A DNA stretch of 64,000 bases, taken from IMG/VR virus record IMGVR_UViG_3300028800_000005, positions 1 through 64,000 of that record; one strand, written 5' to 3'. A program made the position numbers and the translations under genes. This DNA comes from a virus. The notes beneath the pieces were generated by a model. The model had not been told where the DNA came from. It made no database searches and was given only the letters and a program-made list of their open reading frames with translations. This document shows, in pieces, positions 598-55,889 of the stretch (position 1 is its first letter; every line of letters starts with the position of its first letter).

Positions 598-2115
598 ATG
601 GCTACTGAGGCCGAGCGGAACAAGCAACTTCGCGAGTCACTGGTGAAGGCGCGGGAAATCATCCAGGAGCAGCAGAAGGCGCTGGATAACCTGATGCAGC
701 CACCGAACACCCTTGCGGTGTTCACCCGCTGGTTCAGTGAGACCGACCGGCTGGCTGTCGTGAATACCGGTGGCCGGGACATGCGCGTCCCGGTGGCTGA
801 GGAGCTGCTGCCGTTCGTCGGCCAGCGCGTCCTTATGTCACCCGAGGGTAATGCGGTTATCGGCCTTGACGAGTACCCGGTCCACGGAACCGTCGCCACG
901 TTCGACCATGTCCTGGAAGACGGCCGACTATACGTCACCACGAACATGGACACCGGGCTTGTCGTCACCAGGTCTAAGTCCTTGCAGGGCCAGGAGATAA
1001 AGTCGGGCTCCGTCCTTATGCTGGACGAGAAGTCCGGCATTGCCATTGACGTCATCGCCGGGCCGGACGAGACCCAAGACCTCATGCTGGAGGACGTCCC
1101 AGACGTATCGTATGAGGACATCGGCGGGCTGGACGAGCAGCTACAGCAGATCCACGACTCAATCGAATTGCCGTACCTGCACGCCGACCTCTTCAAGAAG
1201 TACCACCGCCGGGCCCCGAAGGGCATCCTCCTCTACGGTCCCCCCGGGTGCGGGAAAACCCTCGTCGCTAAGGCAGTGGCTAATAACCTCGCCAGGAAGT
1301 CCGGCCGGGACAAGGTGCACTTCCTGAACGTCAAGGGCCCCGAGCTTCTGAACAAGTGGGTCGGTGAGACCGAGCGGTCAATCCGGGATGTGTTCGCTAA
1401 GGCCCGGGAGCTTGGCTCCGAGGGTGACCCCGTGGTTATCTTCTTTGACGAGATGGAGTCAATGTTCCGCCAGCGCGGAGCGGGTATATCCAGTGACGTC
1501 GAATCGACTATCGTTCCTTCTCTCCTCGCGGAGATGGACGGAGTCGAGGGACTGCACAACGTTATCGTCATCGGAGCGTCGAACAGGCAGGATCTTATTG
1601 ACCCCGCTATCCTCCGACCTGGTCGCCTGGACGTTAAGATCATGGTCGGTCGGCCGGACAACAAGGCGGCCTACGCCATCCTGGAGAAGTACCTCACCGA
1701 CGACCTGCCGTACGCGGAGCCTATTTCTCTTGGCACGATCATCGACGAGATGTACGCCGAGACCAAGGCGACGGAGTTCCTGGAGGTCACCTACCAGAAT
1801 GGCCAGAAGGAAATACTCCACTTCAAGGACTTCTCCTCCGGCGCGATGATCGCATCGATTGTCGACCGCGCGAAGACCTCGGCTATCAAGGACGAGCTTG
1901 AGGGCAAGGCTGAGGGTATCACCCTGGCCCACCTTATCTCGGCAGTGGCCGACGAATTCAAGGAGAACGAAGACCTTCCGAACACGTCGAACCCCGACGA
2001 CTGGGCGAAGATCTCCGGCAGGAAGGGCGAGCGTATCGCGCACGTACGTCCCCTCCTGCGCGAGGAGGATGACAAGAAGGGCACCACTACTATCGACACG
2101 GGACAGTACCTATGA
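598..2115 (+). CDS. arc: Proteasome-associated AAA+ ATPase (ARC/Mpa family)
   Basis: N-terminal coiled coil ending QPP, OB-type interdomain, EDVPDVSYEDIGGL, Walker A GPPGCGKT, Walker B IFFDEME, SRH SNRQDLIDPAILRPGRLD, NEDLPNTSNPDDWAKISG, C-terminal GQYL. Confidence 0.95.
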   Translation: MATEAERNKQLRESLVKAREIIQEQQKALDNLMQPPNTLAVFTRWFSETDRLAVVNTGGRDMRVPVAEELLPFVGQRVLMSPEGNAVIGLDEYPVHGTVATFDHVLEDGRLYVTTNMDTGLVVTRSKSLQGQEIKSGSVLMLDEKSGIAIDVIAGPDETQDLMLEDVPDVSYEDIGGLDEQLQQIHDSIELPYLHADLFKKYHRRAPKGILLYGPPGCGKTLVAKAVANNLARKSGRDKVHFLNVKGPELLNKWVGETERSIRDVFAKARELGSEGDPVVIFFDEMESMFRQRGAGISSDVESTIVPSLLAEMDGVEGLHNVIVIGASNRQDLIDPAILRPGRLDVKIMVGRPDNKAAYAILEKYLTDDLPYAEPISLGTIIDEMYAETKATEFLEVTYQNGQKEILHFKDFSSGAMIASIVDRAKTSAIKDELEGKAEGITLAHLISAVADEFKENEDLPNTSNPDDWAKISGRKGERIAHVRPLLREEDDKKGTTTIDTGQYL

Positions 2116-44352: not shown

Positions 44353-46919
44353 GCTACTACTTCGATACCTTTGTCACCCCGTTTAGCCCGATCGGGTACT
44401 GGGCCGTTGGTGATGTTGCCAGCGGGTCTCTGCCTGACACGTCTGGAAACGGCCGATCGGCCACGGTATCCGGGTCGGTTACCACGGCTGGCACTGCTCC
44501 CCGGTGGCTGACTGCCGGGACATTCACACCCGGGAACACAGCTAGTACCGCATCGTTCACTTACAGTACCCCATCTCAATTCAGCGCGGAATGCTGGTTC
44601 AGTACTTCAGCCACGGGCAACGAGGCCCTCCTGATAGACGGCGGGTCATACACAGGCCACTCCAACCAGAACTGGTCTGTTGCGATTTACACCGACAACA
44701 AAGTCTACTTTGACTGGAATAGTACAGGGGCTTATCACCGTATATCTGCAGCCGTACCCGGTGGCCTCACCGCTAACACATGGCACCATGTCGTTGCGTT
44801 GTACGACGGCTCCCATCAGATTCTTTACATAGACGGAACTGCAGTAGCAACCTCTGCTACTATCACAGACACCTGGACATGGGTAACACCAAAGGTTCGC
44901 TTTGCGGCGTCGAACCTGGAATTCGTCATAGGTAATATTTCCTACGCCGTGTCCCTGGCCGGTGCCGGATTCTACCCGTCTGCATTTACACCGACCCAGG
45001 TTGCCGATAGGTACCAGGGATATGAACTTGTCACCACTACTGACAATGCCACATGGAACGTTTGTGATACGATTCCGGTTACCGCACCGTCGTCCTGGAA
45101 GTCACTGACGCTAGTGCCCAAGTCTTCATCAGCGTCCTGGAATTCCGATGCCACAGTCACCAAAACTGCACAGTCATCCTGGAAAACCCGGACAGCAGTC
45201 AGCACCTCAGTCCGGACCACCTGGGTATCACATAACGTCACCCCGTATACCCAGAACCTGTGCCCGAACCCGTCCTTTGAGAGCACGGTCACCGTTACCG
45301 ACTCAGACGGTGGCACCAGTACTGAGCCGCAGGGGAACCTTACCGGGTACACCGCGCTGCCGGGCACGACCCTTGCCTACACGTCCCAGGACGCCATGGC
45401 TGGCCAGTATTCTATGCTGGTCACGACGGACGGACACGCAGCCGGTGAGGGATTCGTCGGCCCGATGGTGGAATTCGACCCGGTCGACGAGTACTGCTCT
45501 ATGCAGGTGTCGATGACCGGCGAGACGGGCAGCCTGATGGTGTCCGCGCTGACCCCCGCTGTCGGCGGGAACCCGATGGCTGTCCTCGGGCAGGTCACCG
45601 TCACGCTGTCGCCCGGGTGGCAGACCGTCGCGCTGGACGGGCTGGGCCTAGCTCAGGGGGAGCAGGCTTACCTCGTCGTCTGGACTAACTCCGCGCAGGC
45701 GCTGACCTTCATGGTTGACTGCGTCCAGTACGAACCGGAGTCCCCGCACCACGATTACGTAGAGTCCACTAGGTTCTTTCAGAATTACTTCACCGCGTCC
45801 GGCGGTACCGTAGTTGAAGGAACCGCCGAGCTGATCACGCCCGGACTGATCCGGGTAATGACCCCGAACCCGGGGGGCATTACCTCTGGCGGTTCTGTCT
45901 CCCTGGTGATGGCAACCCCGGTCGCGGCCTTTGATGACTTCGGCATGTGGGAGCTGACCGACCCGGACCCGGCCATGACGTACGTCGGATGGAACACGGC
46001 GAACCAGTCGACGGGCCACAGTAATTACGCGCGGAACTGGGGGATCTTCTACCCGCCGCTGGACTATCCGGTATCAGACGGGACCCTGCTGTGGAAGCGC
46101 GCGGCGTTCATGGTCCCCGGGTTCCAGTATCTGACCGTGCCTGCCGGTGTCTCTCAGAACCTCACTGCCGTTCAGGCCGAGATGCTCCCCCTTTTCGACA
46201 TCATCGACAGCGCCCCGGCCCCCAGTGCGTGGGATACGCCCCGGGCACTGCACGTCCGGGTCCGGCCAACCCGGCTGAACCACTCACCGAACCCGTCGTT
46301 CGACAACGGGACCACCGGATGGACGGCCCTGGGGGCGGCTACCCTTTCCCAGGATGCCACGGTCCAGTACGGAATTCTCGGCAGCTCCGGAAAGGTTACC
46401 TGCACCGGCCCGGGTGACGCGGTCCAGCTTGCCGTCCCGCAGCTTATCGCCGGGGACATTTACACCTGCTCGGTGTACGTCCTCCCGGAGTCGGGTCACA
46501 TCGTCGACCTTCAGATTCAGGCAGGCGGGACGTCCGGAGGTATCAGCGGGGTGCCTGGCAGCGTGCTGCCCCAGACTAACAAGGACGGGACCGAGGCGTG
46601 GGTCCGGTCGAGCGTGACCTTCACCGCGACCGCGTCGACTATGTCCCTGGTGTTCGCACCCGTTACGGACGGGACCTACCCGGTAACGTTCGCCCTGGAC
46701 GATAACCTGATCGAGGCCGGTGACCTTATCGGTAATTACTTCGACGGTAACGGAGGGAACCCCGACTATTACTGGGAAGGCGGGACCGGGGTAAGCCGGA
46801 GCTACTACTATGAGGGGTACAACGCCGGGCAGCAGGTGATCAGTGACGTCCTGGACAGGCACGTTCCGATCGAGATCACTGCGGCCGACCCGGTATATAT
46901 GCAACCTCCGACCCAGTAA
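44349..46919 (+). CDS. Tail protein with LamG domain, Trp repeats and CBM4/9-like domains
   Basis: PIGYW...DTSGNGR, WHHVV..YDG; two N..PNPSF(E/D) modules; YFDG..G..DY.WEG. Confidence 0.7.
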   Translation: MSYYFDTFVTPFSPIGYWAVGDVASGSLPDTSGNGRSATVSGSVTTAGTAPRWLTAGTFTPGNTASTASFTYSTPSQFSAECWFSTSATGNEALLIDGGSYTGHSNQNWSVAIYTDNKVYFDWNSTGAYHRISAAVPGGLTANTWHHVVALYDGSHQILYIDGTAVATSATITDTWTWVTPKVRFAASNLEFVIGNISYAVSLAGAGFYPSAFTPTQVADRYQGYELVTTTDNATWNVCDTIPVTAPSSWKSLTLVPKSSSASWNSDATVTKTAQSSWKTRTAVSTSVRTTWVSHNVTPYTQNLCPNPSFESTVTVTDSDGGTSTEPQGNLTGYTALPGTTLAYTSQDAMAGQYSMLVTTDGHAAGEGFVGPMVEFDPVDEYCSMQVSMTGETGSLMVSALTPAVGGNPMAVLGQVTVTLSPGWQTVALDGLGLAQGEQAYLVVWTNSAQALTFMVDCVQYEPESPHHDYVESTRFFQNYFTASGGTVVEGTAELITPGLIRVMTPNPGGITSGGSVSLVMATPVAAFDDFGMWELTDPDPAMTYVGWNTANQSTGHSNYARNWGIFYPPLDYPVSDGTLLWKRAAFMVPGFQYLTVPAGVSQNLTAVQAEMLPLFDIIDSAPAPSAWDTPRALHVRVRPTRLNHSPNPSFDNGTTGWTALGAATLSQDATVQYGILGSSGKVTCTGPGDAVQLAVPQLIAGDIYTCSVYVLPESGHIVDLQIQAGGTSGGISGVPGSVLPQTNKDGTEAWVRSSVTFTATASTMSLVFAPVTDGTYPVTFALDDNLIEAGDLIGNYFDGNGGNPDYYWEGGTGVSRSYYYEGYNAGQQVISDVLDRHVPIEITAADPVYMQPPTQ

Positions 46920-46959
46920 CAGTGATAGGATGACACCGTAACCAATAATCGGAGCTTAA

Positions 46960-47292
46960 ATGGAATTGATTACCGGCGCACTGGCAGCCTTTTACGTCTG
47001 GAACACGCTGAGGTTCCTTCTGCCGTTCTCTGTACCTGACCGTCTGGCCCTGCCCCTGTACGGCGGGATAGCCTACGGCCTGCTCCAGGTCCCTGTTCAC
47101 TCTGTCGTGCTGGCGCTCGCGATCGCCGGGGGACTCACCCTGCTGATGCTCGGCGTCTCCCTGCTCGGCGTCCGGCCGGAGCGCTGGAGCCTGCCGACGT
47201 TCCACCGGCCGGGGCACTTCAAGCTCACCGGGCTAGGGCACACGCCAGGGGCGAAGGCCAGCCGGGTAGGCCGCAGGATTCCGAAGCTCTAG
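46960..47292 (+). CDS. Small multi-pass membrane protein (holin-like candidate)
   Basis: About three hydrophobic segments and a basic C-terminus; last gene of the structural arm. Confidence 0.55.
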   Translation: MELITGALAAFYVWNTLRFLLPFSVPDRLALPLYGGIAYGLLQVPVHSVVLALAIAGGLTLLMLGVSLLGVRPERWSLPTFHRPGHFKLTGLGHTPGAKASRVGRRIPKL

Positions 47293-47365
47293 TTTCGACG
47301 GGGCAAGACCCCAGGGGGTAGCCTTCTATACGGAAGGTTCACAACTATGTCCAAGGAGGAACCGC

Positions 47366-48361
47366 ATGTCTGATGCGGAACTGCTAATCGCGTTCGCCGG
47401 GTCCGGTACCGTGACGCCCGCGAACGTCAAGGCCCTGATCGATGACCAGCTTATCGGGGAGAGGGACGTCGCTGAGTTCTACGTCCCGGACAAGATCGCA
47501 GAGAAGAAGCAACCGGGGCTAGCAAACGTCGTCGGCTACCTGACTAAGTACTGGGGGGACGACGACTCCAGTGAGGACCCGTTCAAGACCGCCCCGGTGT
47601 CGAACCTGGACGCCGTCCTGCGCACGGGCGCTCGCGACGGCCTGGACCCGGTCCTGGTTATCCTCGCCGGGGACGACGGCGCGGACGACGAGACCGCTGA
47701 CCTGGTCGAGGCTGCCCTTCAGTCTGACATCCGGGTACTGGACCTCGCGGCCGGTCTCGATGAAGTCACCGCGACCGAGGACGAGGCAGAAGAGGTCCCA
47801 GCCGAGCCGGAGCCGGAGCCTGAGGCCCCTAAGCGGCGTCGGCGTACAACGGCAGCCCCCGAAGCGGAGAAGCCCGCTCCGGCCCGTACAAGGGGTAAGC
47901 CACGGTCAAAGGCAGAGGTCGCGGAAGTCGGGGAGAAGGCCCTGGACGACCTTAAGGCCAAGCGCGCTGCGGCGGACGACACCCCGCCGTTCGACGGCCC
48001 CTACAAGGGTGAGGGTATCAACCTCTCGAAGTTTAGCAAGAGCGTGGATAAGATCGACTTCTCGAAGCTCAGCAAGAGCGTAGAGGGAGTCTCCGTGTCC
48101 AGCGGGGAATCAGTCCGGGACCTGCTGATCGTGGCTCTTCGTGGCGCTCTGAGCGCCCTGGAGGCTGCTGACGCCCCGCTCGGTGCCGTGCTGGACGCTG
48201 CGGACGCGGGCCAGCCTGGTCCGACCACGGCCTACATCCGGGACGACGAGACCGGGAAGCTCCGCAAGCGGGGGCGCGGGAAGCCGCGTGCCGGTGAGAC
48301 CGCCGTCTACCTCACCCCGTCCCAGGAGAAGGCAGCCAGGGCTAAGGGAGAGCTGGAGTAG
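47366..48361 (+). CDS. Acidic Rossmann-like domain protein with AT-hook-like motifs
   Basis: SD AAGGAGG; IAFAGSG start; RTRGKPRS and RKRGRGKPR motifs; internal 13-aa tandem duplication. Confidence 0.65.
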   Translation: MSDAELLIAFAGSGTVTPANVKALIDDQLIGERDVAEFYVPDKIAEKKQPGLANVVGYLTKYWGDDDSSEDPFKTAPVSNLDAVLRTGARDGLDPVLVILAGDDGADDETADLVEAALQSDIRVLDLAAGLDEVTATEDEAEEVPAEPEPEPEAPKRRRRTTAAPEAEKPAPARTRGKPRSKAEVAEVGEKALDDLKAKRAAADDTPPFDGPYKGEGINLSKFSKSVDKIDFSKLSKSVEGVSVSSGESVRDLLIVALRGALSALEAADAPLGAVLDAADAGQPGPTTAYIRDDETGKLRKRGRGKPRAGETAVYLTPSQEKAARAKGELE

Positions 48362-48362
48362 C

Positions 48363-48436
48363 AAATGAAAAGGGCCCCTCTGCGAACCAGTGGCTCAAGC
48401 GGAGGGGCCCCTCTCTCGGTGAGGAGGAGGCACCGT
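48363..48436 (-). ncRNA. Candidate sRNA with anti-SD loop CCUCCUCCU and intrinsic terminator
   Basis: Minus strand reads ACGGUG-CCUCCUCCU-CACCG, then GGGCCCCUCCGC...GCAGAGGGGCCC-UUUUCAUUU; promoter directly upstream. Confidence 0.6.
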
Positions 48437-48442
48437 GATCCC

Positions 48443-48472
48443 AGTATAACCAAAGTGCAGAATCAAAAGCAA
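48443..48472 (-). promoter_or_regulatory. SigA-type promoter TTGCTT-N18-TATACT driving the candidate sRNA
   Basis: AAGCAA at 48467-72 and AGTATA at 48443-48 on + strand; AT-rich island. Confidence 0.6.
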
Positions 48473-48493
48473 AACAGGGAGGAGGAAAGCAAC

Positions 48494-48622
48494 GTGACCA
48501 TCTTTGACATGAGGCCGCGCGAGCCGGAGATAAAGTTCCCGAAGTGCTGGGAACATATCCCTGCTCTGTTCGAGCTATGCCTCGCGGATCACTTCGGCAG
48601 GCAAGACGACGATGAAGAATAA
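48494..48622 (+). CDS. Small hypothetical protein (42 aa)
   Basis: Strong SD GGGAGGAGGA before GTG 48494; the 48365 start in the ORF track runs through the hairpins. Confidence 0.5.
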   Translation: MTIFDMRPREPEIKFPKCWEHIPALFELCLADHFGRQDDDEE

Positions 48623-49055
48623 CGATCTCTCAGCGGACCCTGTGCCCAGGCTGGCACTGGTTTTCGAGGGTGCCCTGGCCTGGCTTCCTGACGAGAAGGT
48701 ACAGCGTCAGTTCACCCGGCACATGGACCGGGGCGAATTCAGTAAGGCCGTCGACCTGTTCGAGTTTAACCAGAAGCTTGAGACGGTGATCTGGGACAGG
48801 TCGTTCCGTGTGTCGATGCAGATCGACGTCATAACTTTCCTTGGCCCGGACAAGTTCGCGGAGGAGGTAGCCCGTAGGATAGGCGACGAGGAGCTGCCGA
48901 TCCACAAGGTCTGGGCTACGACGCCGAAGATACTCGGCCGGAGGCTGGCCTACATGCCAGACCTTGTGCGGGTCTACCACGCGTACCCGCAGTACCAGCT
49001 TTACTTCGGGCAGAAAGGCAGGCTTCTAGATGACGCTAACCAGTTCGGGTACTAG
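48612..49055 (+). CDS. Hypothetical protein (degenerate HAD-like)
   Basis: LVFEG.LA N-terminal motif; good codon usage. Confidence 0.6.
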   Translation: MKNNDLSADPVPRLALVFEGALAWLPDEKVQRQFTRHMDRGEFSKAVDLFEFNQKLETVIWDRSFRVSMQIDVITFLGPDKFAEEVARRIGDEELPIHKVWATTPKILGRRLAYMPDLVRVYHAYPQYQLYFGQKGRLLDDANQFGY

Positions 49056-49063
49056 GAGGAGAC

Positions 49064-49450
49064 ATGAAGGAACCAGCATTTAAGAGCTATTTCGAGGCCC
49101 GGGACTTCCTAGACATCACATCCATGAACATGCCAGTCGAGTTCAACATGGCACAGATGGCGATCTTCAGGTTCCTGCTGTCACACACGATGTTCACGCA
49201 GGACGACGACTACGGGCGCGTGGATGACCGGTGGACCCGGCAGGAGACGATCGCGGACGCGGTAAGGTGCTCACGTGAGTATGTAAACAGGGCACTGAAG
49301 ATTCTGGAGAACAAGGTCGGAGCCATCAAGCGCAAGAAGTGGCGGGACGGGGCACCGGGAAGCGTGCCGGACGAGATTCGGATCACCTGGCGGGCCATGT
49401 ACAAGATTGCCGAGGGTGAACCTGGATCACACTCTATAGGAAGTGACTGA
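49064..49450 (+). CDS. Winged-HTH replication-initiator-like protein
   Basis: RQETIADAVRCSREYVNRALKILE..G.I; followed by iteron-like repeats. Confidence 0.7.
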   Translation: MKEPAFKSYFEARDFLDITSMNMPVEFNMAQMAIFRFLLSHTMFTQDDDYGRVDDRWTRQETIADAVRCSREYVNRALKILENKVGAIKRKKWRDGAPGSVPDEIRITWRAMYKIAEGEPGSHSIGSD

Positions 49451-49510
49451 TGATCACAGCGAGTGTGACCTACGATCACACTCTATTCCTTTGTAAAGAA
49501 AGAAAAGAAC
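49416..49510. repeat. Three GTGA-N7-TCACA palindromes plus purine/AT-rich tract; putative replication origin
   Basis: Copies at 49416, 49443 and 49465, all ending GATCACA; then TTTGTAAAGAAAGAAAAGAAC. Confidence 0.6.
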
Positions 49511-49539
49511 TACGTCGGTAGTGTTAGGAGGAAGAAGAC

Positions 49540-50091
49540 ATGAGTAACAGGTCATGGCTGAACAGCAAGGACCCGAACTACACTCGCCGTCAGTTCGACC
49601 CGAATTACAAGCCAGCACGACAGGACCCCAGGCACCAGGAGAAGAAAGGTCCCCGCGAGTTCGACAGGAACTCCTGCCCCGCAGGATGGGACGCCTCAGT
49701 CTGGGAGCTGACCCTCCAGTTCGAGCAGGCAGCCGCCAGGGAGGGGATTCAACTGGCGACCGGCAGGCCCGTGATCTACTCCCTCCTGCGCGACAGGTGC
49801 GACTCGTTCCGCGACGGGCTGTACACCAGGCACAAGCGCTGGTCAGTCGACGGGGTGAACGTCCACGCTACCTGGCAGGAGATAGTCTCCGCTGCGATCT
49901 CCCGGCACTTCAGGGACTACCAGGAGGACGAGTACGCGGCGGACTACTTTTGCGGGCCGGTGGTGTTCAACGATATGATCAGAGAGGTCCGGGAGCACGG
50001 GGCGAACCTCTACGGGGTCCGCAAGCTTGAGGAGCGGTACGGCTCCCTGGACTACAATCACAGCTACGCTGAGGAGGACGGCAATGAATGA
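49540..50091 (+). CDS. Hypothetical protein
   Basis: SD AGGAGGA; 183-aa ORF. Confidence 0.65.
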   Translation: MSNRSWLNSKDPNYTRRQFDPNYKPARQDPRHQEKKGPREFDRNSCPAGWDASVWELTLQFEQAAAREGIQLATGRPVIYSLLRDRCDSFRDGLYTRHKRWSVDGVNVHATWQEIVSAAISRHFRDYQEDEYAADYFCGPVVFNDMIREVREHGANLYGVRKLEERYGSLDYNHSYAEEDGNE

Positions 50092-50377
50092 CAGCTACAA
50101 CTGGGACGAGTACTTCAAGAGCCACAACGTCCTGGATCTTCGGGAAGACCTCGGCCACTGGAAGGACGCCCGTCACTACTACACCCCGTCTTCCAGTCAG
50201 CGGCACACGCTTGACGCCCGGATCGCGCGGCTCGAAGAGTACCTGGCCGCCCGGAAGTTCACCGAGGCTGACGCCCGCGAGCTTCTGGCATCGATGGGGA
50301 TCGATGACCCGCTTACGTGGCAGGTTCAGGTACTGGTTAACGTCCTGAACGCGGAGGGCCCGATCCGTGCCTTCTGA
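50084..50377 (+). CDS. Hypothetical protein
   Basis: SD GAGGAGG before ATG 50084. Confidence 0.6.
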   Translation: MNDSYNWDEYFKSHNVLDLREDLGHWKDARHYYTPSSSQRHTLDARIARLEEYLAARKFTEADARELLASMGIDDPLTWQVQVLVNVLNAEGPIRAF

Positions 50378-50612
50378 GCGCCAGACATTCCACTGCGGTG
50401 CGGAGGTTCTCCCTATCCTGCGTGAAGCGTGGAAGCCCCATGACGTCGACCACACATCCAATGGCTTTATCGAGTGGGCGGCCCCGTCCCCGCTGCCATA
50501 CGGCATCGACATCTACGAGGAGCCGGACTTCCCGGACCATTACTTCGAGGTGCGAGCAGGTTCCGAAGTTCTTCTCGCCGGATTCATAGAGGCAGGCAAT
50601 GGATCTAGGTAG
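50367..50612 (+). CDS. Hypothetical protein
   Basis: SD GGAGG; overlap-coupled. Confidence 0.55.
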   Translation: MPSERQTFHCGAEVLPILREAWKPHDVDHTSNGFIEWAAPSPLPYGIDIYEEPDFPDHYFEVRAGSEVLLAGFIEAGNGSR

Positions 50613-51873
50613 AGAAATGATCCGGGCGGTCCTGACAGAGAAGGGCGCGCTCAAGAAGTTCATCGACGCTGGATTCGGGCACGACTGGGTAAACGACAAG
50701 CAGGATCTTTCCCGCGCCGCTATCTTCGGGGACACGGACCTGGATGCCTACCGGTTCATCCTCCGGCACTGGGAGGACTACCGCGAGCCGCCTAGCCTGA
50801 GTTTCTTCCAGCACAGTTACCCGCCTGAGTCCCTCCGGCTGCCGAAGTCAGACCTTAAGGTCGAAGAACTCCTGGCGATGGTCCGCTCCGACGTGACCCG
50901 CGTCCAACTGGAGGAGGGCGGGTCGGAATTCATCGACGCGTTCGAGTCCGGGGACCTTGAGGGTGCCGTCGCGAAGATGGAGGAGACGGCACGGAAGATC
51001 CGCGCGGAGCGGACCTCCCGGAGCGTGCAGATTCCCTGGGACAGCGCGGACTACGACCTTGAGTCTAAGCTGAACCGAAAGGAGGTCGCCGGAATACACA
51101 CGGGCATCGCAAAGCTTGACGAGAAGTTCTCCGGCTGGCAGCCCGGGGAGATGGTGACCTTCCTCGGCCGGGCGAAGGCGTGCAAGACCTCGCACCTCCT
51201 GAAGGCCGCGCTGGCTGCCCACGACGACGGCTGGAATTCCCTGGTGGTCACCGTGGAAATCAAGGGGTCGTCTATTGCCGAGCGGCTGGACTGCTTCGCG
51301 GCCGGGGTAGAGTACGACCGGTACGTCCGGGGAAGGCTGGACGAGTCTGAGAAGAAGCGCGTCCGGATGGCGAAGTCTAATCGCGGACGAGAGGAGTACC
51401 TTCACGTAATCCAGCCGACCGGGAAGTACACTATCGCGGACCTTGAGATGGACATCGAGAGGTACCGGCCGCACGTCGTCTTCCTTGACGGGTTCTACTT
51501 CCTGATCGACAGCCGGACAGGGAAGCCCGGGTCGAACTGGGAGGGGCACGATAACCTCGCCCAGGATCTGCATAACCTCTGCCTGCGTCATGACATAGTG
51601 ATCGTCGTGACGATGCAGGTCCGGGAGAAGCAGGCCCGGGGCGGTAAGAAAGGTGACCTGGACGACAACACGATGATGGGCGGGACCGGGCTTATCATGT
51701 TCTCGGACATGGTACTTACCCTGGACATGGACAAGGAGACCTGGCTGAACACTATCCAGTGCTCCCGCAGCAGGACCCGGTACCTTCCCACGGTCAAGGG
51801 GACATGGTACTGGCCGAAGTCAGAGTTCCGGGTGATGGAGGATTACCTGGACGAGGACGAGGAGGACGAGTAA
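50599..51873 (+). CDS. DnaB-like replicative helicase
   Basis: TGI.KLDE..SGWQPGE, Walker A variant GRAKACKT, VFLDGFY, V.TMQ, SD.VL.L. Confidence 0.85.
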   Translation: MDLGREMIRAVLTEKGALKKFIDAGFGHDWVNDKQDLSRAAIFGDTDLDAYRFILRHWEDYREPPSLSFFQHSYPPESLRLPKSDLKVEELLAMVRSDVTRVQLEEGGSEFIDAFESGDLEGAVAKMEETARKIRAERTSRSVQIPWDSADYDLESKLNRKEVAGIHTGIAKLDEKFSGWQPGEMVTFLGRAKACKTSHLLKAALAAHDDGWNSLVVTVEIKGSSIAERLDCFAAGVEYDRYVRGRLDESEKKRVRMAKSNRGREEYLHVIQPTGKYTIADLEMDIERYRPHVVFLDGFYFLIDSRTGKPGSNWEGHDNLAQDLHNLCLRHDIVIVVTMQVREKQARGGKKGDLDDNTMMGGTGLIMFSDMVLTLDMDKETWLNTIQCSRSRTRYLPTVKGTWYWPKSEFRVMEDYLDEDEEDE

Positions 51874-52076
51874 TGGACGACACTCTTGACGGAGTTTACA
51901 AGTGGCTAGTGGAGGTCGTGCACTTCCCGTTCGACTTCTTCTTCGGGGACAAGCCGGAGTGGATGGACGTCGAGCGGCTAGCGACGGCCTGGTGGCTGTA
52001 CGAGGGGAAGCAGGAGTCAATCGAGGACTACGTGGGAACTATCTACTACGAGACTTCATGGCCAAGGGATAACTGA
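51873..52076 (+). CDS. Hypothetical protein
   Basis: TAATG coupling, SD GAGGAGG. Confidence 0.55.
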   Translation: MDDTLDGVYKWLVEVVHFPFDFFFGDKPEWMDVERLATAWWLYEGKQESIEDYVGTIYYETSWPRDN

Positions 52077-52270
52077 TGGAAGCGATCGACGGCCGGGGAA
52101 ATGTCTGGACGAAATTCGATGACGCGGAGTTCCCGTGGCACATCACGAAGCTTACGACTGATCCCGACTGGAGCACGACAGCGGGCTGGCACTCCGGACG
52201 GGCCAGGAACCTTCAGACTATCGAGATGATGTTCGGGGCCGTGGTGGTCCTGGATTCCGAGGAGGAATGA
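52076..52270 (+). CDS. Hypothetical protein
   Basis: TGATG coupling. Confidence 0.55.
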   Translation: MEAIDGRGNVWTKFDDAEFPWHITKLTTDPDWSTTAGWHSGRARNLQTIEMMFGAVVVLDSEEE

Positions 52271-52458
52271 TGGCAGAGGCACCTAAGCTCGTAGGTATTC
52301 CGGCGTACGAGATATTCGAATGGCGCGGCGATTACTGGATGACCCTGGGCATCGGTGATGATAACGAGGAGTTCGCCAAGGCCGCCGCCCGGCGTGAGCA
52401 GGAGAGTTACAAGCACGTCCGTCTGTTCAAGGTCACCCGCATCGAGATCGAGTTCTGA
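52267..52458 (+). CDS. Hypothetical protein
   Basis: SD GAGGAGG, coupled on both sides. Confidence 0.55.
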   Translation: MMAEAPKLVGIPAYEIFEWRGDYWMTLGIGDDNEEFAKAAARREQESYKHVRLFKVTRIEIEF

Positions 52459-53414
52459 TGCCTAAGACGGAATTCATCCGGCGGCCGGTGCCGAGTGACG
52501 TTCCGGCTGCCCTGGATGAACTCGGGCTGGACTACTCAGTCTCCGGGGACAACGCGAAGATACTCTGCCTGTTCCACACTGACCATAGCCCCTCCTGCTA
52601 CGTCCATGTCGACAGTGGCGTCTTCCACTGCTTCGTCTGCGACTCGGCCGGTCAGTTCGTGCAGCTCGTACAGCGCGTCAAGGGCCTGTCTGAGGAGAAG
52701 GCGGCACTCTGGTGCCAGACGAGGGCGTTCGGCCGCCTGCGTGGCGCTGCGGAGCGCATGGAGCTATCCTCGCACCGTAACGACACGACCCTGGTGATAA
52801 ACGAGGCGAGCCTTGCCCTGTTCACGGCCCCGCCTGAGCGCGAGCTGCGTAAGCGCGGTATTGATTTGGACGCGGCCGATGAACTTGGGATACTATGGGA
52901 CCCGAAGGAGCGTGCCTGGATTCTCCCCATGCGGGATCAAGACGGGAAGCTCGAAGGATGGCAGGTAAAGAAGGGCCATGATGTCTGGAACTACCCCGGG
53001 GACGACCGGAAGCGGGGAGTCAAGGGCGTTCGGAAGTCCGACTACCTCTTCGGACTCCATGCCATCTCTCACACTGCTCCAGTACGAGGCCTGCTGGTTG
53101 AAAGTCCACTCGATGTTGCTGTCTTCCGGACTGCCGGATTCCGAAGCGCGGTCGCAAGCTACGGCGTACGTGTCTCTTCTAGCCAGCTTGACCTTCTGAC
53201 TGCGCACTGCGACGAGCTTATCTACGCCGGGGACAATGACGAGGCCGGATGGCTGATGGCTGATATCCTGCGGAAGGAGTTCAAGCGGCTGCCACTTAGT
53301 TTCTATAACTACGGGAAGACTAAGTGCAAGGACCCGGGAGAGATGTGGACGAAGGGGGAGGACATACTGTGGGGCATAACGAACGCGACGCGCGCACTGA
53401 CGACGAGGTTCTAG
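52458..53414 (+). CDS. DNA primase (CHC2 zinc finger plus TOPRIM)
   Basis: CLFH.DHSPS...FHCFVC; VESPLD; GDNDEAG; KDPGE. Confidence 0.9.
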   Translation: MPKTEFIRRPVPSDVPAALDELGLDYSVSGDNAKILCLFHTDHSPSCYVHVDSGVFHCFVCDSAGQFVQLVQRVKGLSEEKAALWCQTRAFGRLRGAAERMELSSHRNDTTLVINEASLALFTAPPERELRKRGIDLDAADELGILWDPKERAWILPMRDQDGKLEGWQVKKGHDVWNYPGDDRKRGVKGVRKSDYLFGLHAISHTAPVRGLLVESPLDVAVFRTAGFRSAVASYGVRVSSSQLDLLTAHCDELIYAGDNDEAGWLMADILRKEFKRLPLSFYNYGKTKCKDPGEMWTKGEDILWGITNATRALTTRF

Positions 53415-53434
53415 ATCAACACCTGTGGGCCCAA

Positions 53435-53638
53435 ATGGACCTGCGGGACGACAGTGATAACGTGGTGTGGCACGGGCGAATCTGCATCACGGGACCCGAC
53501 GACATCGACCGCATCAATGAGATCGCCCAGCCTTACCTGAACGTTCCGTTGACAAAGGATGCGGTGTATAAGCTAATCGCGGTGCTGCACGACGCTGGAT
53601 TCCCGTCACGACATGCGAAGGACTGGATCTTCCAATGA
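53435..53638 (+). CDS. Hypothetical protein
   Basis: ORF filling the gap; start uncertain. Confidence 0.45.
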   Translation: MDLRDDSDNVVWHGRICITGPDDIDRINEIAQPYLNVPLTKDAVYKLIAVLHDAGFPSRHAKDWIFQ

Positions 53639-53811
53639 CGCGCAACTTTTCGGTAGAGCTTTACAAGTACCTGTCCGAGGACCCGGACCGTGCGGAGCGG
53701 TACCTGCTTGAGCCGGAGTACCGTACGGTAGTACGGCGTCTGATAGAGCAGCGGGTTATCAGCCGAAAGATAGAAGACAAGGTAATTCAGAAGATGGAGG
53801 AGGAGTTTTAA
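53635..53811 (+). CDS. Hypothetical protein (58 aa, not in ORF track)
   Basis: MTRNFSVELYKYLSEDPDRAERYLL...; ATGA and TAATG coupling. Confidence 0.55.
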   Translation: MTRNFSVELYKYLSEDPDRAERYLLEPEYRTVVRRLIEQRVISRKIEDKVIQKMEEEF

Positions 53812-54233
53812 TGATTCGATGGATGCTATGGGGACGGCAGTGGGGCAAGAGTTACCAGACACTGGAGTGGTTCAAGGGGGACCCGGTCCACCGTGTTATC
53901 ATCACCCCGAACCTGGTTCAGGCTGAGCAGCTCCGTCGTGAGCTTGCAAACTACTACCCGCACGGCCCGGACGATGCTGCCGCTGAATGGCATGAGCTAC
54001 TGGAGACGAACGTCGTCAGCCTGACGCAGTGGTCACAGGAGGGAGACCATCACGCCAGGTACACCAGGGACTGGGAACGATTCTATCCGGAGGTCGCGAT
54101 AGATAACCTGGACATGATGCTCAAGGGCCTGGTTGGAGCGGACGTCTCCCTGGTTACCGCGAGCGGCGGGAACGACACGCCCGTGGGTCTCGTCATCGAC
54201 CCGCGCACGCTAAAGTACCCGACCATCGACTGA
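53811..54233 (+). CDS. Small P-loop protein
   Basis: GRQWGKS Walker A-like, VAIDNLD Walker B-like. Confidence 0.6.
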   Translation: MIRWMLWGRQWGKSYQTLEWFKGDPVHRVIITPNLVQAEQLRRELANYYPHGPDDAAAEWHELLETNVVSLTQWSQEGDHHARYTRDWERFYPEVAIDNLDMMLKGLVGADVSLVTASGGNDTPVGLVIDPRTLKYPTID

Positions 54234-54236
54234 CCC

Positions 54237-55889
54237 GTGCTGACCGGAAAGCTTCACCCGTACCAGGACCCCTGTGTTGACGCCGCGCTGGCACGGGGGC
54301 GGTACCTTATCGCCGCAGACATGGGTACCGGCAAGACGGTCATGTCCATAGCAGTGGCCGAGGAGCTGCTCGGGTGCGGGGACGTCTCCCGGGTCCTGAT
54401 TGTCGTCCCGTCTTCCCTGAAGTACCAGTGGGCCCAGGCCCTGGCGAAGTTCACCGACCTGCCGACTAAGGTGGTCAAGGTAGGCAAGCACAAGATCACC
54501 GTCCCGGCAGATCCAAGGTGCGTTGTAATCAACGGGCGTGCATTCCAGAAGAACAAGGTCCAGTACTCTGCGGCCGATGACCGTAAGCGCCAGTACAATT
54601 CGGTGACCGACGCGACTGAGTACGTCATCCTGAGCTACGAGTCGATCCTTGATGACTCCCGGCAGGTACGCAAGCTCAAGCCCGGCCTGGTCATCCTTGA
54701 CGAGTGCACCCAGATAAAGTCCTTCCGAGCGCAGCGGTCAAAGAAGATCAAGAGGATGCTTGACTCCGAGTACCGACTCGGACTGACCGGTACCCCCATT
54801 GAGAACGGCAGGCCCGAGGAGCTGTTCTCTATCATGCAGTGGGTCGACGAGGACGTGCTCGGCCGGTGGGATTTCTTCGACCAGACGTACATCCGCCGCG
54901 ATTCAAATGGCATATCCAAGGGGTACAAGAACCTGCCGGTACTGCGCGAGCGGCTGGCCCCGGCGATGTCCCGGCTATCCAGGCACGACCCGACCGTCCG
55001 GTCGTACATGCCAGACGTGACCGAGGACCGCTGGTCAGTAGAGATCACCGGCCCTATCCGGGACGCGTACATGTCGATGGCCCGGGACCTTTACGCGGAG
55101 CTGAAGAACATTGGATTCGCCGGGAGGTCGTTCTCCGTGGCGGATTACTACGGGGGAGCGGCGGACGAGAGCACTAAAATCGGCAAGATCATGGCAATTC
55201 ACACGGCCATGGAGATGCTGCTCGACCACCCTGACCTGGTAGTGAAGTCCGCCATGGAATACGAGGCCACGAAGAACCTGCCTTTCGAGAAGAGAAAGGG
55301 ATCGAAGTACGCGTACCAGGTATGGCAGGACGACCTGCTTGATGACGTTTGGGACAGCCCGAAGCTGACCGAGCTGACCGAAAGGCTAACCCGCGCGCTG
55401 TCCTTTGACGCCAAGGTTCTGGTGTACACCAAGTACCGGTCGATGCTCCCGGTACTGTCGGAAGCGATCGGTGTCCCGTCCGTCCTGTACCACGGTGAGC
55501 TGACGTCCAGCCAGAAAGCGGCTGCTGTGGCTAAGTTCTCCGCACCGGCCGGGCCCCGCGTCTTCCTGTCATCCCATGCCGGTGCCTACGGCTGTGACAT
55601 GAACATGGCTGACCACCTGGTCGACTACGATAACGCCTGGCAGGCGGGCAAGGCTGACCAGATCGACGCGCGCCACGTCCGAGCCAGCAGCGAGTTCAAG
55701 AACGTCTACGTCCACAAGATGGTCTGCGAGGGGACGGTGGAGGAACGCATCCTCCAGATGCAGCACCACAAGCGACGTGTGTCCGGCGCGGTCATGGACG
55801 GCAAGGGCGCGGACAAGTTCGGCCGCGTGGAGAACGACGTCACCGGGCTGACGGCGTTCCTTGAGGGCACGGTCGACGGCTTGATTTGA
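54237..55889 (+). CDS. SNF2-family helicase/translocase
   Basis: LHPYQ, DMGTGKT, VVPSSLKYQW, ILDEC, LTGTPIEN, HelicaseC motifs, TVEERI. Confidence 0.9.
   Translation: MLTGKLHPYQDPCVDAALARGRYLIAADMGTGKTVMSIAVAEELLGCGDVSRVLIVVPSSLKYQWAQALAKFTDLPTKVVKVGKHKITVPADPRCVVINGRAFQKNKVQYSAADDRKRQYNSVTDATEYVILSYESILDDSRQVRKLKPGLVILDECTQIKSFRAQRSKKIKRMLDSEYRLGLTGTPIENGRPEELFSIMQWVDEDVLGRWDFFDQTYIRRDSNGISKGYKNLPVLRERLAPAMSRLSRHDPTVRSYMPDVTEDRWSVEITGPIRDAYMSMARDLYAELKNIGFAGRSFSVADYYGGAADESTKIGKIMAIHTAMEMLLDHPDLVVKSAMEYEATKNLPFEKRKGSKYAYQVWQDDLLDDVWDSPKLTELTERLTRALSFDAKVLVYTKYRSMLPVLSEAIGVPSVLYHGELTSSQKAAAVAKFSAPAGPRVFLSSHAGAYGCDMNMADHLVDYDNAWQAGKADQIDARHVRASSEFKNVYVHKMVCEGTVEERILQMQHHKRRVSGAVMDGKGADKFGRVENDVTGLTAFLEGTVDGLI

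What the first reader, a model, noticed from the sequence alone, without database searches (positions are those of the whole stretch)
48363..48486. Candidate phage sRNA displaying an anti-Shine-Dalgarno loop at the head of the replication arm
Seen: this is the only convincing minus-strand transcription unit in the window. It has TTGCTT-N18-TATACT, a predicted start near 48436, the hairpin CGGUG-[CCUCCUCCU]-CACCG, then a GC-rich hairpin plus UUUUCAUUU, about 72 nt in total with no ORF. The loop is complementary to AGGAGGAGG. GGAGGA-type RBSs cluster in the replication arm (before 47366, 48494, 49064, 49540, 50084, 51873, 52267, 53811, 58841, 63152), whereas most structural genes use weaker SDs. 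Known: CCUCCUCCC-loop (cuckoo) RNAs and actinobacterial 6C RNA use C-rich loops to pair with G-rich targets. Inference: a trans-acting translational repressor of early/replication genes or of host mRNAs, possibly enforcing the early-to-late switch or a dormant state.
Basis: partly seen in the sequence, partly recalled or inferred. Interest (0 to 1): 0.8.

Follow-up and report, generated by a model that had tools for sequence, protein, structure and literature searches.

The report
Phage small RNA with anti-SD loop
Between the tail genes and the replication genes of an uncultured 112-kb soil phage lies a conserved gene for a probable ~70-base RNA, read against all its neighbours, whose open loop mirrors a strong ribosome-binding site and so probably damps translation of such genes; the RNA itself has not yet been observed.

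Summary
On the minus strand, 48363-48472 carries a promoter-like pair of hexamers, a 5-bp hairpin with the 9-nt loop CCUCCUCCU, a long GC hairpin and a U tract. The RNA would be about 70 nt.

Two further uncultured phage lineages (L005, L013) have the same two-hairpin unit in the same gene slot. The loop block is identical in all three. The stems differ but still pair: 8 of 21 pairs changed on both sides. The U tract is always on the minus strand.

The window's promoter candidate fits this phage's own recurrent promoter motif. A fourth lineage (L003) lacks the unit.

It is not in Rfam, and it fails membership of the cuckoo/ar14, 6C and ctRNA families. The likely host is actinobacterial.

My best reading, at about 0.5, is an early-promoter-driven small RNA with an anti-Shine-Dalgarno seed, convergent to the tail operon. 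However, no target is conserved between lineages and no RNA data exist.

Rivals are a purely cis-antisense role, like lambda OOP RNA, and a plus-strand mRNA element.

This scan has noted similar anti-SD-loop candidates in other phages. I class it as a new member of a known kind, of moderate interest.

The parts
48467..48472 (-). -35-like hexamer TTGCTT
   Evidence: Part of the motif TTGnnn-N16-18-TAnACT, which recurs before genes of this genome.
48443..48448 (-). -10-like hexamer TATACT, 18 nt after the -35. The predicted start is about 48436.
   Evidence: The relatives carry TATTCT (L005) and AATACT (L013) at the matching place.
48417..48435 (-). Hairpin 1: 5-bp stem with 9-nt loop CCUCCUCCU (loop 48422-48430), the proposed anti-SD seed.
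   Evidence: The loop block is identical in three lineages. One stem pair is G-C in two lineages and A-U in L013.
48367..48415 (-). Terminator hairpin. The perfect arms are 48402-48410 and 48372-48380. The apical loop carries the conserved UUGAG (CTCAA on the + strand, 48394-48398).
   Evidence: Six of 15 pairs changed on both sides among lineages.
48363..48371 (-). U tract UUUUCAUUU, the expected 3' end of the RNA. It ends 2 nt beyond the stop codon (48359-48361) of the convergent 331-aa gene.
   Evidence: A U-rich tract lies on this same strand in L005 and L013.
48477..48486 (+). Extended SD of the 42-codon gene 48494-48622, the best predicted phage target together with the SD of 53811.
   Evidence: duplex with the loop at -18.4 kcal/mol for both. 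This is a prediction only, and it is not conserved in the relatives.
47366..48361 (+). Last gene of the tail/structural arm (331 aa, no known family), convergent with the RNA unit. I used it as the anchor to find relatives.

Best explanation
A phage gene for a small non-coding RNA of about 70 nt, read from the minus strand. Host RNA polymerase would start at a SigA-like promoter of the type this phage uses for its early genes, near 48436, and stop at an intrinsic terminator at 48363-48415.

The RNA has one functional hairpin. Its 9-nt loop, CCUCCUCCU, is the complement of an extended Shine-Dalgarno sequence.

My inference is that the loop pairs with G-rich ribosome-binding sites of the GGAGGAGG type and blocks 30S binding there, without needing a chaperone. 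Targets could be phage mRNAs, host mRNAs or both. This is how the C-rich loops of 6C, RsaE and cuckoo RNAs work.

In this phage, strong sites belong mostly to replication and other non-structural genes. The effect would therefore fall on those genes and spare the weak-SD structural genes.

Shown here:
- the conserved structure;
- the invariant loop;
- the terminator polarity;
- the promoter-like site.

Inferred:
- that the RNA is transcribed;
- that it acts in trans;
- the identity of its targets.
For: Structure and conservation:
- The same two-hairpin unit sits in the same slot in L005/L011/L010 and in L013. The slot lies after the last ORF of the 331-aa gene block and before the 147-aa gene. 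Flanking proteins are 64-87% (L005) and 57% (L013) identical to the window's.
- Between the window and the L005 lineage, a 21-nt island around the loop is the only well-matched part of the spacer. A BLAST comparison extends it to a 42-nt match at 83%, and at 80% or more only this island of the relative's contigs lies on the spacer.
- A 12-nt loop block is identical in all three lineages.
- 88.7% of cells are paired, and 8 of 21 pairs changed on both sides. None of 500 shuffles reached this, and slid controls gave 44-57% paired.
- A covariance model finds one copy per genome at 81-85 bits and nothing else above 18 bits.

Strand:
- The U-rich tract follows the GC stem on the minus strand in all three lineages.
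- The phage's own plus-strand terminators (19279, 85067, 105257) have their U tracts downstream. 48372-48410 is the only strong intergenic hairpin with the opposite polarity.
- The motif TTGnnn-N16-18-TAnACT occurs 8 times in 224 kb of both strands, against 3.6 +/- 1.8 in shuffles. Six of the other seven sites lie just upstream of genes. The only instance on the minus strand of the window is this one, and it places the start at the foot of hairpin 1.
- In L005, the only match to the relaxed motif in 12.3 kb, on either strand, is at the homologous place.
- All sub-threshold Rfam matches that cover the element lie on the minus strand.

Function:
- The loop is unpaired in 85% of the ensemble.
- Predicted duplexes with the SDs of 48494 and 53811 are -18.4 kcal/mol.
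- Strong SDs precede 2 of 42 structural genes against 28 of 115 others.
- C-rich loops that pair with SDs are an established mechanism (PMC4615179; PMC6486639).
Against: - No transcript evidence of any kind exists.
- Both strands fold about equally well, so the structure alone does not pick the strand.
- The promoter hexamers match the sigma-70 consensus at only 7-8 of 12 positions, and the general scan did not call them.
- The L013 candidate promoter is off its own phage's consensus and lies 32 nt from the hairpin.
- The L003 lineage lacks the unit.
- No 8-nt complementary site is shared by orthologous genes of the window genome and G001.
- A 9-nt anti-SD seed matches very many mRNAs, so specificity is unclear.
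- There are only three independent sequences.
Confidence: 0.5

Rival explanations
1. The minus-strand RNA is made but works only in cis. It is fully complementary to plus-strand transcripts that run from the tail genes into the replication genes. Pairing would start by loop-loop contact between its C-rich loop and the G-rich loop of the sense hairpin. It would lead to RNase III cleavage, or to collision between polymerases. Either outcome uncouples or lowers expression of the replication arm, much as lambda OOP RNA acts on cII mRNA (own knowledge).
For: - The position, size and orientation resemble OOP RNA: a short RNA read opposite to the operon, just upstream of replication genes.
- The GC hairpin has no U tract on the plus strand, so sense transcripts may read through.
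- No plus-strand promoter of the phage's own type exists between 1 and 63 kb, so the replication genes may depend on read-through.
- The top sub-threshold Rfam match is a counter-transcribed RNA, ctRNA_p42d, at 28.9 bits.
Against: - A cis-antisense pair is complementary whatever its sequence. That does not explain why the loop stays an exact anti-SD block over three lineages while the stems drift.
- The RNA ends 2 nt beyond the upstream stop codon, so it covers no coding sequence and no start site.
Confidence: 0.2
2. The functional strand is the plus strand. The GC hairpin would be the 3' end or stabiliser, or a U-less terminator, of the tail operon. The second hairpin would display a polypurine, SD-like loop on the mRNA. 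That loop could act as a 30S standby or mRNA-stabilising site, like the polypurine 5' stabiliser of Bacillus phage SP82 (own knowledge). Alternatively it could be a GGA-in-loop protein site.
For: - All neighbouring genes are on the plus strand.
- The plus strand folds as well as the minus strand.
- The related L003 lineage has, in the same slot, a hairpin whose U run lies on the plus strand.
- The element always sits right after a stop codon.
Against: - The U-rich tract is on the wrong side for the plus strand in all three lineages, although this phage's plus-strand terminators have proper U tracts.
- The distance from the G-rich loop to the next start codon is about 60, 60 and 100 nt, and the next gene differs between lineages. 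This argues against a cis translational role.
- There is no plus-strand promoter immediately upstream that would put the loop near a 5' end.
- The minus-strand promoter-like site would be left unexplained.
- Actinobacteria lack CsrA (own knowledge).
Confidence: 0.2
3. A DNA-level signal rather than an RNA. It could be an operator-like inverted repeat, or a single-strand DNA hairpin used in replication. An iteron-like array was noted about 0.7 kb downstream.
Against: - Compensatory changes keep the pairing rather than the sequence in both stems. That is the signature of a folded single strand, not of a protein site on duplex DNA.
- The promoter-hairpin-terminator-U tract layout is that of a transcription unit.
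- The motif is not repeated anywhere else in the genome.
Confidence: 0.05

Closest known systems
Cuckoo / alpha-r14 RNAs (Rfam RF02344; CcsR1-4 of Rhodobacter sphaeroides, NfeR1 of Sinorhizobium meliloti)
   Same: A hairpin loop carrying a near-identical anti-SD motif: CCUCCUCCU here, CCUCCUCCC there. The stems vary by compensatory change while the loop alone is conserved. The proposed action is occlusion of ribosome-binding sites (PMC4615179).
   Different: This unit has one motif hairpin, not 2-4. The last loop base differs. The Rfam model scores 15.8 bits against a threshold of 58.8. It is phage-borne and free-standing, with its own promoter. The likely host is actinobacterial, not alphaproteobacterial.
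6C RNA of high-GC Gram-positive bacteria (Rfam RF01066; M. tuberculosis 6C/B11)
   Same: A small RNA of the likely host phylum that binds several mRNAs through C-rich loops without a chaperone (PMC6486639). It is short, with stable hairpins plus a terminator.
   Different: 6C has two C-rich loops and a conserved sequence of its own. No Rfam match to it appeared even at E <= 10 in the local scan. The loop here is a CCU repeat rather than a C run.
Lambda OOP RNA (77 nt; own knowledge)
   Same: A short phage RNA read against the main operon from its own promoter, lying just upstream of the replication genes and ending at an intrinsic terminator.
   Different: OOP overlaps the 3' end of cII and acts as an antisense RNA with RNase III. 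The RNA here stops 2 nt short of the upstream gene and carries a conserved anti-SD loop. There is no sequence similarity.
Counter-transcribed RNAs of plasmids (ctRNA_p42d, RF00489)
   Same: The best sub-threshold Rfam match, on the same strand. It is a short antisense RNA ending in a GC hairpin plus U tract.
   Different: The score is 28.9 bits against a threshold of 50, and the match covers only the terminator hairpin. There is no rep-gene leader opposite.

Membership tests
Cuckoo / ar14 (RF02344) | 2 to 4 adjacent hairpins, each with CCUCCUCCC in the loop (PMC4615179) | tested here: not met
   There is one hairpin with CCUCCUCCU. The second hairpin is a terminator with an unrelated loop.
Cuckoo / ar14 (RF02344) | Reaches the Rfam gathering score of the family model | tested here: not met
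   15.8 bits against 58.8, and the match runs past the predicted start. No hit at gathering threshold in the whole window.
Cuckoo / ar14 (RF02344) | Alphaproteobacterial chromosome or plasmid context | tested here: not met
   It lies in a 112-kb virus record with terminal repeats. The host hints point to Actinomycetota.
6C RNA (RF01066) | Match to the family covariance model, with two C-rich loops | tested here: not met
   No match at gathering score or at E <= 10 in 48250-48600. Only one C-rich loop is present.
ctRNA_p42d (RF00489) | Reaches the Rfam gathering score | tested here: not met
   28.9 bits against 50, and only the terminator part matches.
Intrinsic (Rho-independent) terminator, minus strand | GC-rich stem directly followed by a U-rich tract on the transcribed strand | tested here: met
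   A 9-bp perfect stem, extendable to 14 bp, is followed by UUUUCAUUU. The polarity is the same in L005 and L013.
Trans-acting base-pairing sRNA with C-rich seed (functional class) | Own promoter and terminator, no conserved ORF, conserved single-stranded seed | tested here: met
   These are sequence-level predictions only. Promoter motif. Terminator. Frames broken by gaps. Invariant loop.
Trans-acting base-pairing sRNA with C-rich seed (functional class) | The RNA is made and represses targets through the seed | not testable with these tools
   No RNA run holds this DNA. The phage is uncultured.
Lambda OOP-type cis-antisense RNA | Overlaps the coding 3' end of the convergent upstream gene | tested here: not met
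   The U tract ends at 48363 and the stop codon is at 48359-48361.

The most novel reading that the evidence does not exclude
A lytic actinophage uses a single early small RNA as a global discriminator of ribosome-binding-site strength. As the RNA accumulates, its anti-SD loop progressively silences the strong-SD early and replication genes, and strong-SD host mRNAs. The weak-SD structural genes keep being translated. That would be an RNA-only early-to-late translational switch. A more remote variant is that the loop acts as a decoy of the 16S rRNA 3' end, for a host factor or toxin that attacks that sequence.
Probability: 0.15. Interest if true: 0.75.

Novelty: new member of a known kind. Interest (0 to 1): 0.5.

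Why it matters
Regulatory RNAs of lytic phages are few, and to my knowledge almost none are described for phages of high-GC Gram-positive hosts.

This is a compact, comparatively well supported candidate:
- conserved structure;
- invariant seed;
- its own promoter and terminator;
- a simple, testable mechanism.

It also comes with a genome-wide pattern that gives the mechanism a possible purpose: strong ribosome-binding sites sit on non-structural genes and weak ones on structural genes.

If it works as proposed, a phage can time or bias translation with about 70 nt of RNA. The same logic may hold for the other anti-SD-loop hairpins this scan has flagged in unrelated phages.

If it is only a convergent terminator with a passenger hairpin, it is ordinary.

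Tried and rejected
RNA evidence:
- No RNA holder was listed for 45000-52000. The 15 listed holders are rhizosphere DNA runs.
- Laying four DNA runs showed only the window phage itself and the L005-type relative. No new variants appeared.

Finding more relatives:
The contigs of 15 further homologues of the 331-aa protein could therefore not be fetched. This limits the comparison to three lineages.
- The first metagenome scan found nothing. The second gave only two loci of the L005 lineage.
- Cultured phages have no DNA or protein match to the flanking 331-aa gene.
- The covariance model finds nothing in the distantly related Streptomyces phages BRock and GiJojo.
- I scanned for the loop block followed by the UUGAG motif. 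Among viral contigs, 51 stretches matched. Only L005 and L013 have the fold, and most of the rest belong to an unrelated coding repeat.
None of the 80 loci searched with the model scored above 16 bits. No host copy was found, but this scan was truncated.

Rfam:
- No family reaches threshold.

Ideas rejected:
- Small peptide: the 12-codon GUG frame is not kept in the relatives.
- Leader peptide on the plus strand: a 4-codon frame exists in the window only.
- Conserved target: 8-nt complements before genes are not at orthologous genes in the window genome and G001.
- Repeated plus-strand promoter motif in 48436-48492: none.
- Other CCUCC-loop hairpins in the genome: many short ones occur on both strands, which looks like chance.

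Full report
**Context.** The window is the first 64 kb of a 112,017-bp virus record with direct terminal repeats. The record was assembled from rhizosphere metagenomes. It has about 60% G+C, and essentially all genes are on the plus strand.

The finding lies in the 132-nt gap between two blocks. Upstream is a 331-aa gene of no known family that closes the tail/structural arm (47366-48361). Downstream is a 42-codon ORF (48494-48622), followed by replication genes:
- a weak HTH/initiator-like protein at 49064;
- a DnaB-like helicase at 50599;
- a primase at 52458;
- an SNF2 helicase at 54237.

The phage has no close cultured relative. Its DnaB-primase-helicase order and its genome size resemble Streptomyces phages BRock and GiJojo at about 24% protein identity. 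Its ARC/Mpa-like ATPase is closest to Actinomycetota clusters. An actinobacterial host is therefore likely but not shown.

**The observation.** On the minus strand they are:
- TTGCTT (48472-48467);
- 18 nt of spacer;
- TATACT (48448-48443);
- a 5-bp hairpin with the loop CCUCCUCCU (48435-48417);
- a GC hairpin with perfect 9-bp arms (48410-48372);
- UUUUCAUUU (48371-48363).

From the expected start near 48436, the RNA would be about 70 nt. It folds at -41.6 kcal/mol into exactly these two hairpins in 85% of the ensemble, with z = -5.35.

The RBS list is correct. With my own crude gene calls, strong 6-nt SDs precede 2 of 42 genes of the structural arm. The figures are 9 of 27 in the rest of the window and 19 of 88 beyond it.

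**Relatives.** I found relatives by using the flanking proteins as anchors.
- The L005 lineage (L001/L005/L007/L011/L012 and L010, including a 112,412-bp contig) has 64% and 87% identity in the two flanking proteins.
- The L013 lineage (a 57-kb contig, G001) has 57% identity in the 147-aa protein.
- The L003/L009/L014 lineage has 47-60% identity.

In L005 and L013 the same unit sits in the same slot, right after the stop codon of the last upstream ORF. Otherwise the spacers are barely alignable. Between the window and L005, a 21-nt island around the loop is the only well-matched part, which BLAST stretches to 42 nt at 83%. Across all three lineages, a 12-nt block comprising the loop and the first bases of the 3' arm is identical.

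Hairpin 1 of L013 has a longer stem, a G-C to A-U exchange and a 12-nt loop that still contains the motif. The terminator stems have different sequences in each lineage but keep pairing.

On a MAFFT alignment that is not tuned to the structure:
- 88.7% of cells pair;
- 8 of 21 pairs changed on both sides;
- none of 500 column shuffles reached this;
- structures slid by 1-3 columns reach only 44-57% paired.

Three sequences are too few for a formal covariation test, but the pattern is that of a selected fold.

A covariance model built from the three sequences finds one copy per genome (81-85 bits) and nothing else of note. The L003 lineage has no copy. In the same slot it carries a different 13-bp hairpin whose U run lies on the plus strand.

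**Which strand?** Folding energy does not decide this. The plus strand folds about as well. Two other features do.

First, terminator polarity. The U-rich tract follows the GC stem on the minus strand in all three lineages. On the plus strand, the stem is followed at once by hairpin 1. This phage uses ordinary intrinsic terminators with downstream U tracts on the plus strand (19279, 85067, 105257). 48372-48410 is its only strong intergenic hairpin with the reverse polarity.

Second, the promoter. By the E. coli consensus the hexamers are weak (8 of 12), and the general scan did not report them. But the genome has its own recurrent motif, TTGnnn-N16-18-TAnACT, seen at:
- plus strand: 63096, 67415, 82032, 88751, 110165 (and the similar 99846);
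- minus strand: 96014, in front of a minus-strand ORF;
- plus strand: 80636, the one hit that falls inside a gene.

There are 8 hits on both strands against 3.6 +/- 1.8 in shuffles. Apart from 80636, the hits lie in gaps just before genes. The eighth hit is the site at 48472, which puts the start at the foot of hairpin 1.

In L005, the only match to the relaxed motif in 12.3 kb, on either strand, is at the homologous place, 9 nt before the hairpin. In L013, the candidate TTGCGC-N16-AATACT resembles that phage's own family (TTGCnn-N17-TAAACT) but is off-consensus, and it would give a 25-nt leader.

Sub-threshold Rfam matches that cover the element all lie on the minus strand. Together this makes a minus-strand transcript the better reading. 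I put it at about 0.7.

**What it does.** The only part kept invariant while the stems drift is the single-stranded C-rich loop. That is the mark of a base-pairing seed. Its complement is an extended SD.

C-rich loops that pair with SDs and block initiation are established for cuckoo/NfeR1/CcsR RNAs (PMC4615179) and for 6C in high-GC Gram-positives, where no chaperone is needed (PMC6486639). Predicted duplexes with the SDs of 48494 and 53811 are -18.4 kcal/mol.

The promoter type is the one found before the genes at 63-112 kb, and it is absent from the plus strand of the tail and replication arms. If those promoters are early, the RNA is an early product. It would then act on later-expressed strong-SD genes, or on host mRNAs.

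Sites with 8-nt complementarity do not sit at orthologous genes in the window genome and G001. The gene next to the unit has a matching SD only in the window. A second conserved loop motif, UUGAG in the terminator apex, is unexplained.

**Rivals.**
- A purely cis-antisense role, like lambda OOP RNA, is attractive from position and orientation, and because sense transcripts probably read through a hairpin that lacks a plus-strand U tract. It does not explain why the loop must stay an anti-SD.
- A plus-strand role (3'-end structure of the tail operon plus an SD-like loop acting as a standby or stabilising site) has the wrong U-tract polarity. The distance to the next start is variable, and it leaves the minus-strand promoter unexplained.
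- A DNA site is unlikely, given compensatory changes in both stems.

**Comparison with known families.** It works like cuckoo and 6C RNAs but is a member of neither:
- one motif hairpin instead of 2-4;
- CCUCCUCCU rather than CCUCCUCCC;
- ar14 at 15.8 bits against a threshold of 58.8;
- no 6C match at all;
- ctRNA_p42d at 28.9 bits against 50, on the terminator only.

No copy was found in bacterial genomes by a truncated pattern scan filtered with the model, nor in other IMG/VR contigs. It is thus a small, uncatalogued RNA family. So far it is confined to one clade of uncultured soil phages.

Earlier notes of this scan report similar anti-SD-loop candidates in unrelated phages. I did not test those.

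**Limits.**
Fifteen more homologous loci known at protein level could not be examined.
- No RNA data exist for this DNA.
- Gene calls behind the SD statistics are my own rough ones.

**Verdict.**
- The most likely reading is a real, conserved phage small RNA with an anti-SD seed.
- It is a new member of a known kind, of moderate interest.

Noticed in passing
window 63096 (+); G000 67415, 82032, 88751, 99846, 110165 (+) and 96014 (-): A recurrent promoter-like motif, TTGnnn-N16-18-TAnACT (often TTGCCA-N18-TAGACT), lies in gaps just before genes. There is none on the plus strand between 1 and 63 kb. The tail and replication arms seem to lack this promoter type and may depend on another one or on read-through.
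   Followed up: partly
whole genome; window 1-48361 versus the rest: Strong 6-nt Shine-Dalgarno sequences are rare before structural genes (2 of 42) and common before non-structural genes (28 of 115), using crude gene calls.
   Followed up: partly
window 48394-48398 (CTCAA on the + strand); L005 and L013 at the same place in the fold: The apical loop of the terminator hairpin keeps UUGAG in all three lineages, although the stems differ. This could be a second seed or a protein site. It is unexplained.
   Followed up: no
L003 5255-5315: The lineage that lacks the C-rich-loop hairpin has, in the same slot, a 13-bp GC hairpin followed by a U run on the plus strand. The element was apparently replaced by a terminator of the opposite polarity.
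   Followed up: partly
G001 (phage of L013), reverse-complement coordinates 2725, 3219, 5478, 31376, 36713, 55563 (+) and 41962 (-): That phage has its own tight promoter family, TTGCnn-N17-TAAACT, followed by a conserved CTTGTAAGG box in the leader.
   Followed up: no
window 598-2115: An AAA ATPase with proteasome-ATPase OB domains (ARC/Mpa-like) is encoded near the left end of the phage. Its nearest clusters are mostly from Actinomycetota, and similar genes are annotated in Brevundimonas and Mycobacterium phages.
   Followed up: partly
window 50599-55889: The order DnaB-like helicase, primase, SNF2 helicase is the same as in Streptomyces phages BRock and GiJojo (112-115 kb), at about 24% identity. 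This is a distant kinship and a hint at the host.
   Followed up: partly
G000 90881-90914 and 91402-91441 (beyond the window): Two nested hairpins about 520 nt apart share outer arms (GGGCCCC with its complement) and an inner CCGGGT...ACCCGGA. They may be paired terminators or another structured element.
   Followed up: no
G000 100091-100164: A single tRNA gene (Asn, GTT) is the only tRNA in the genome.
   Followed up: no
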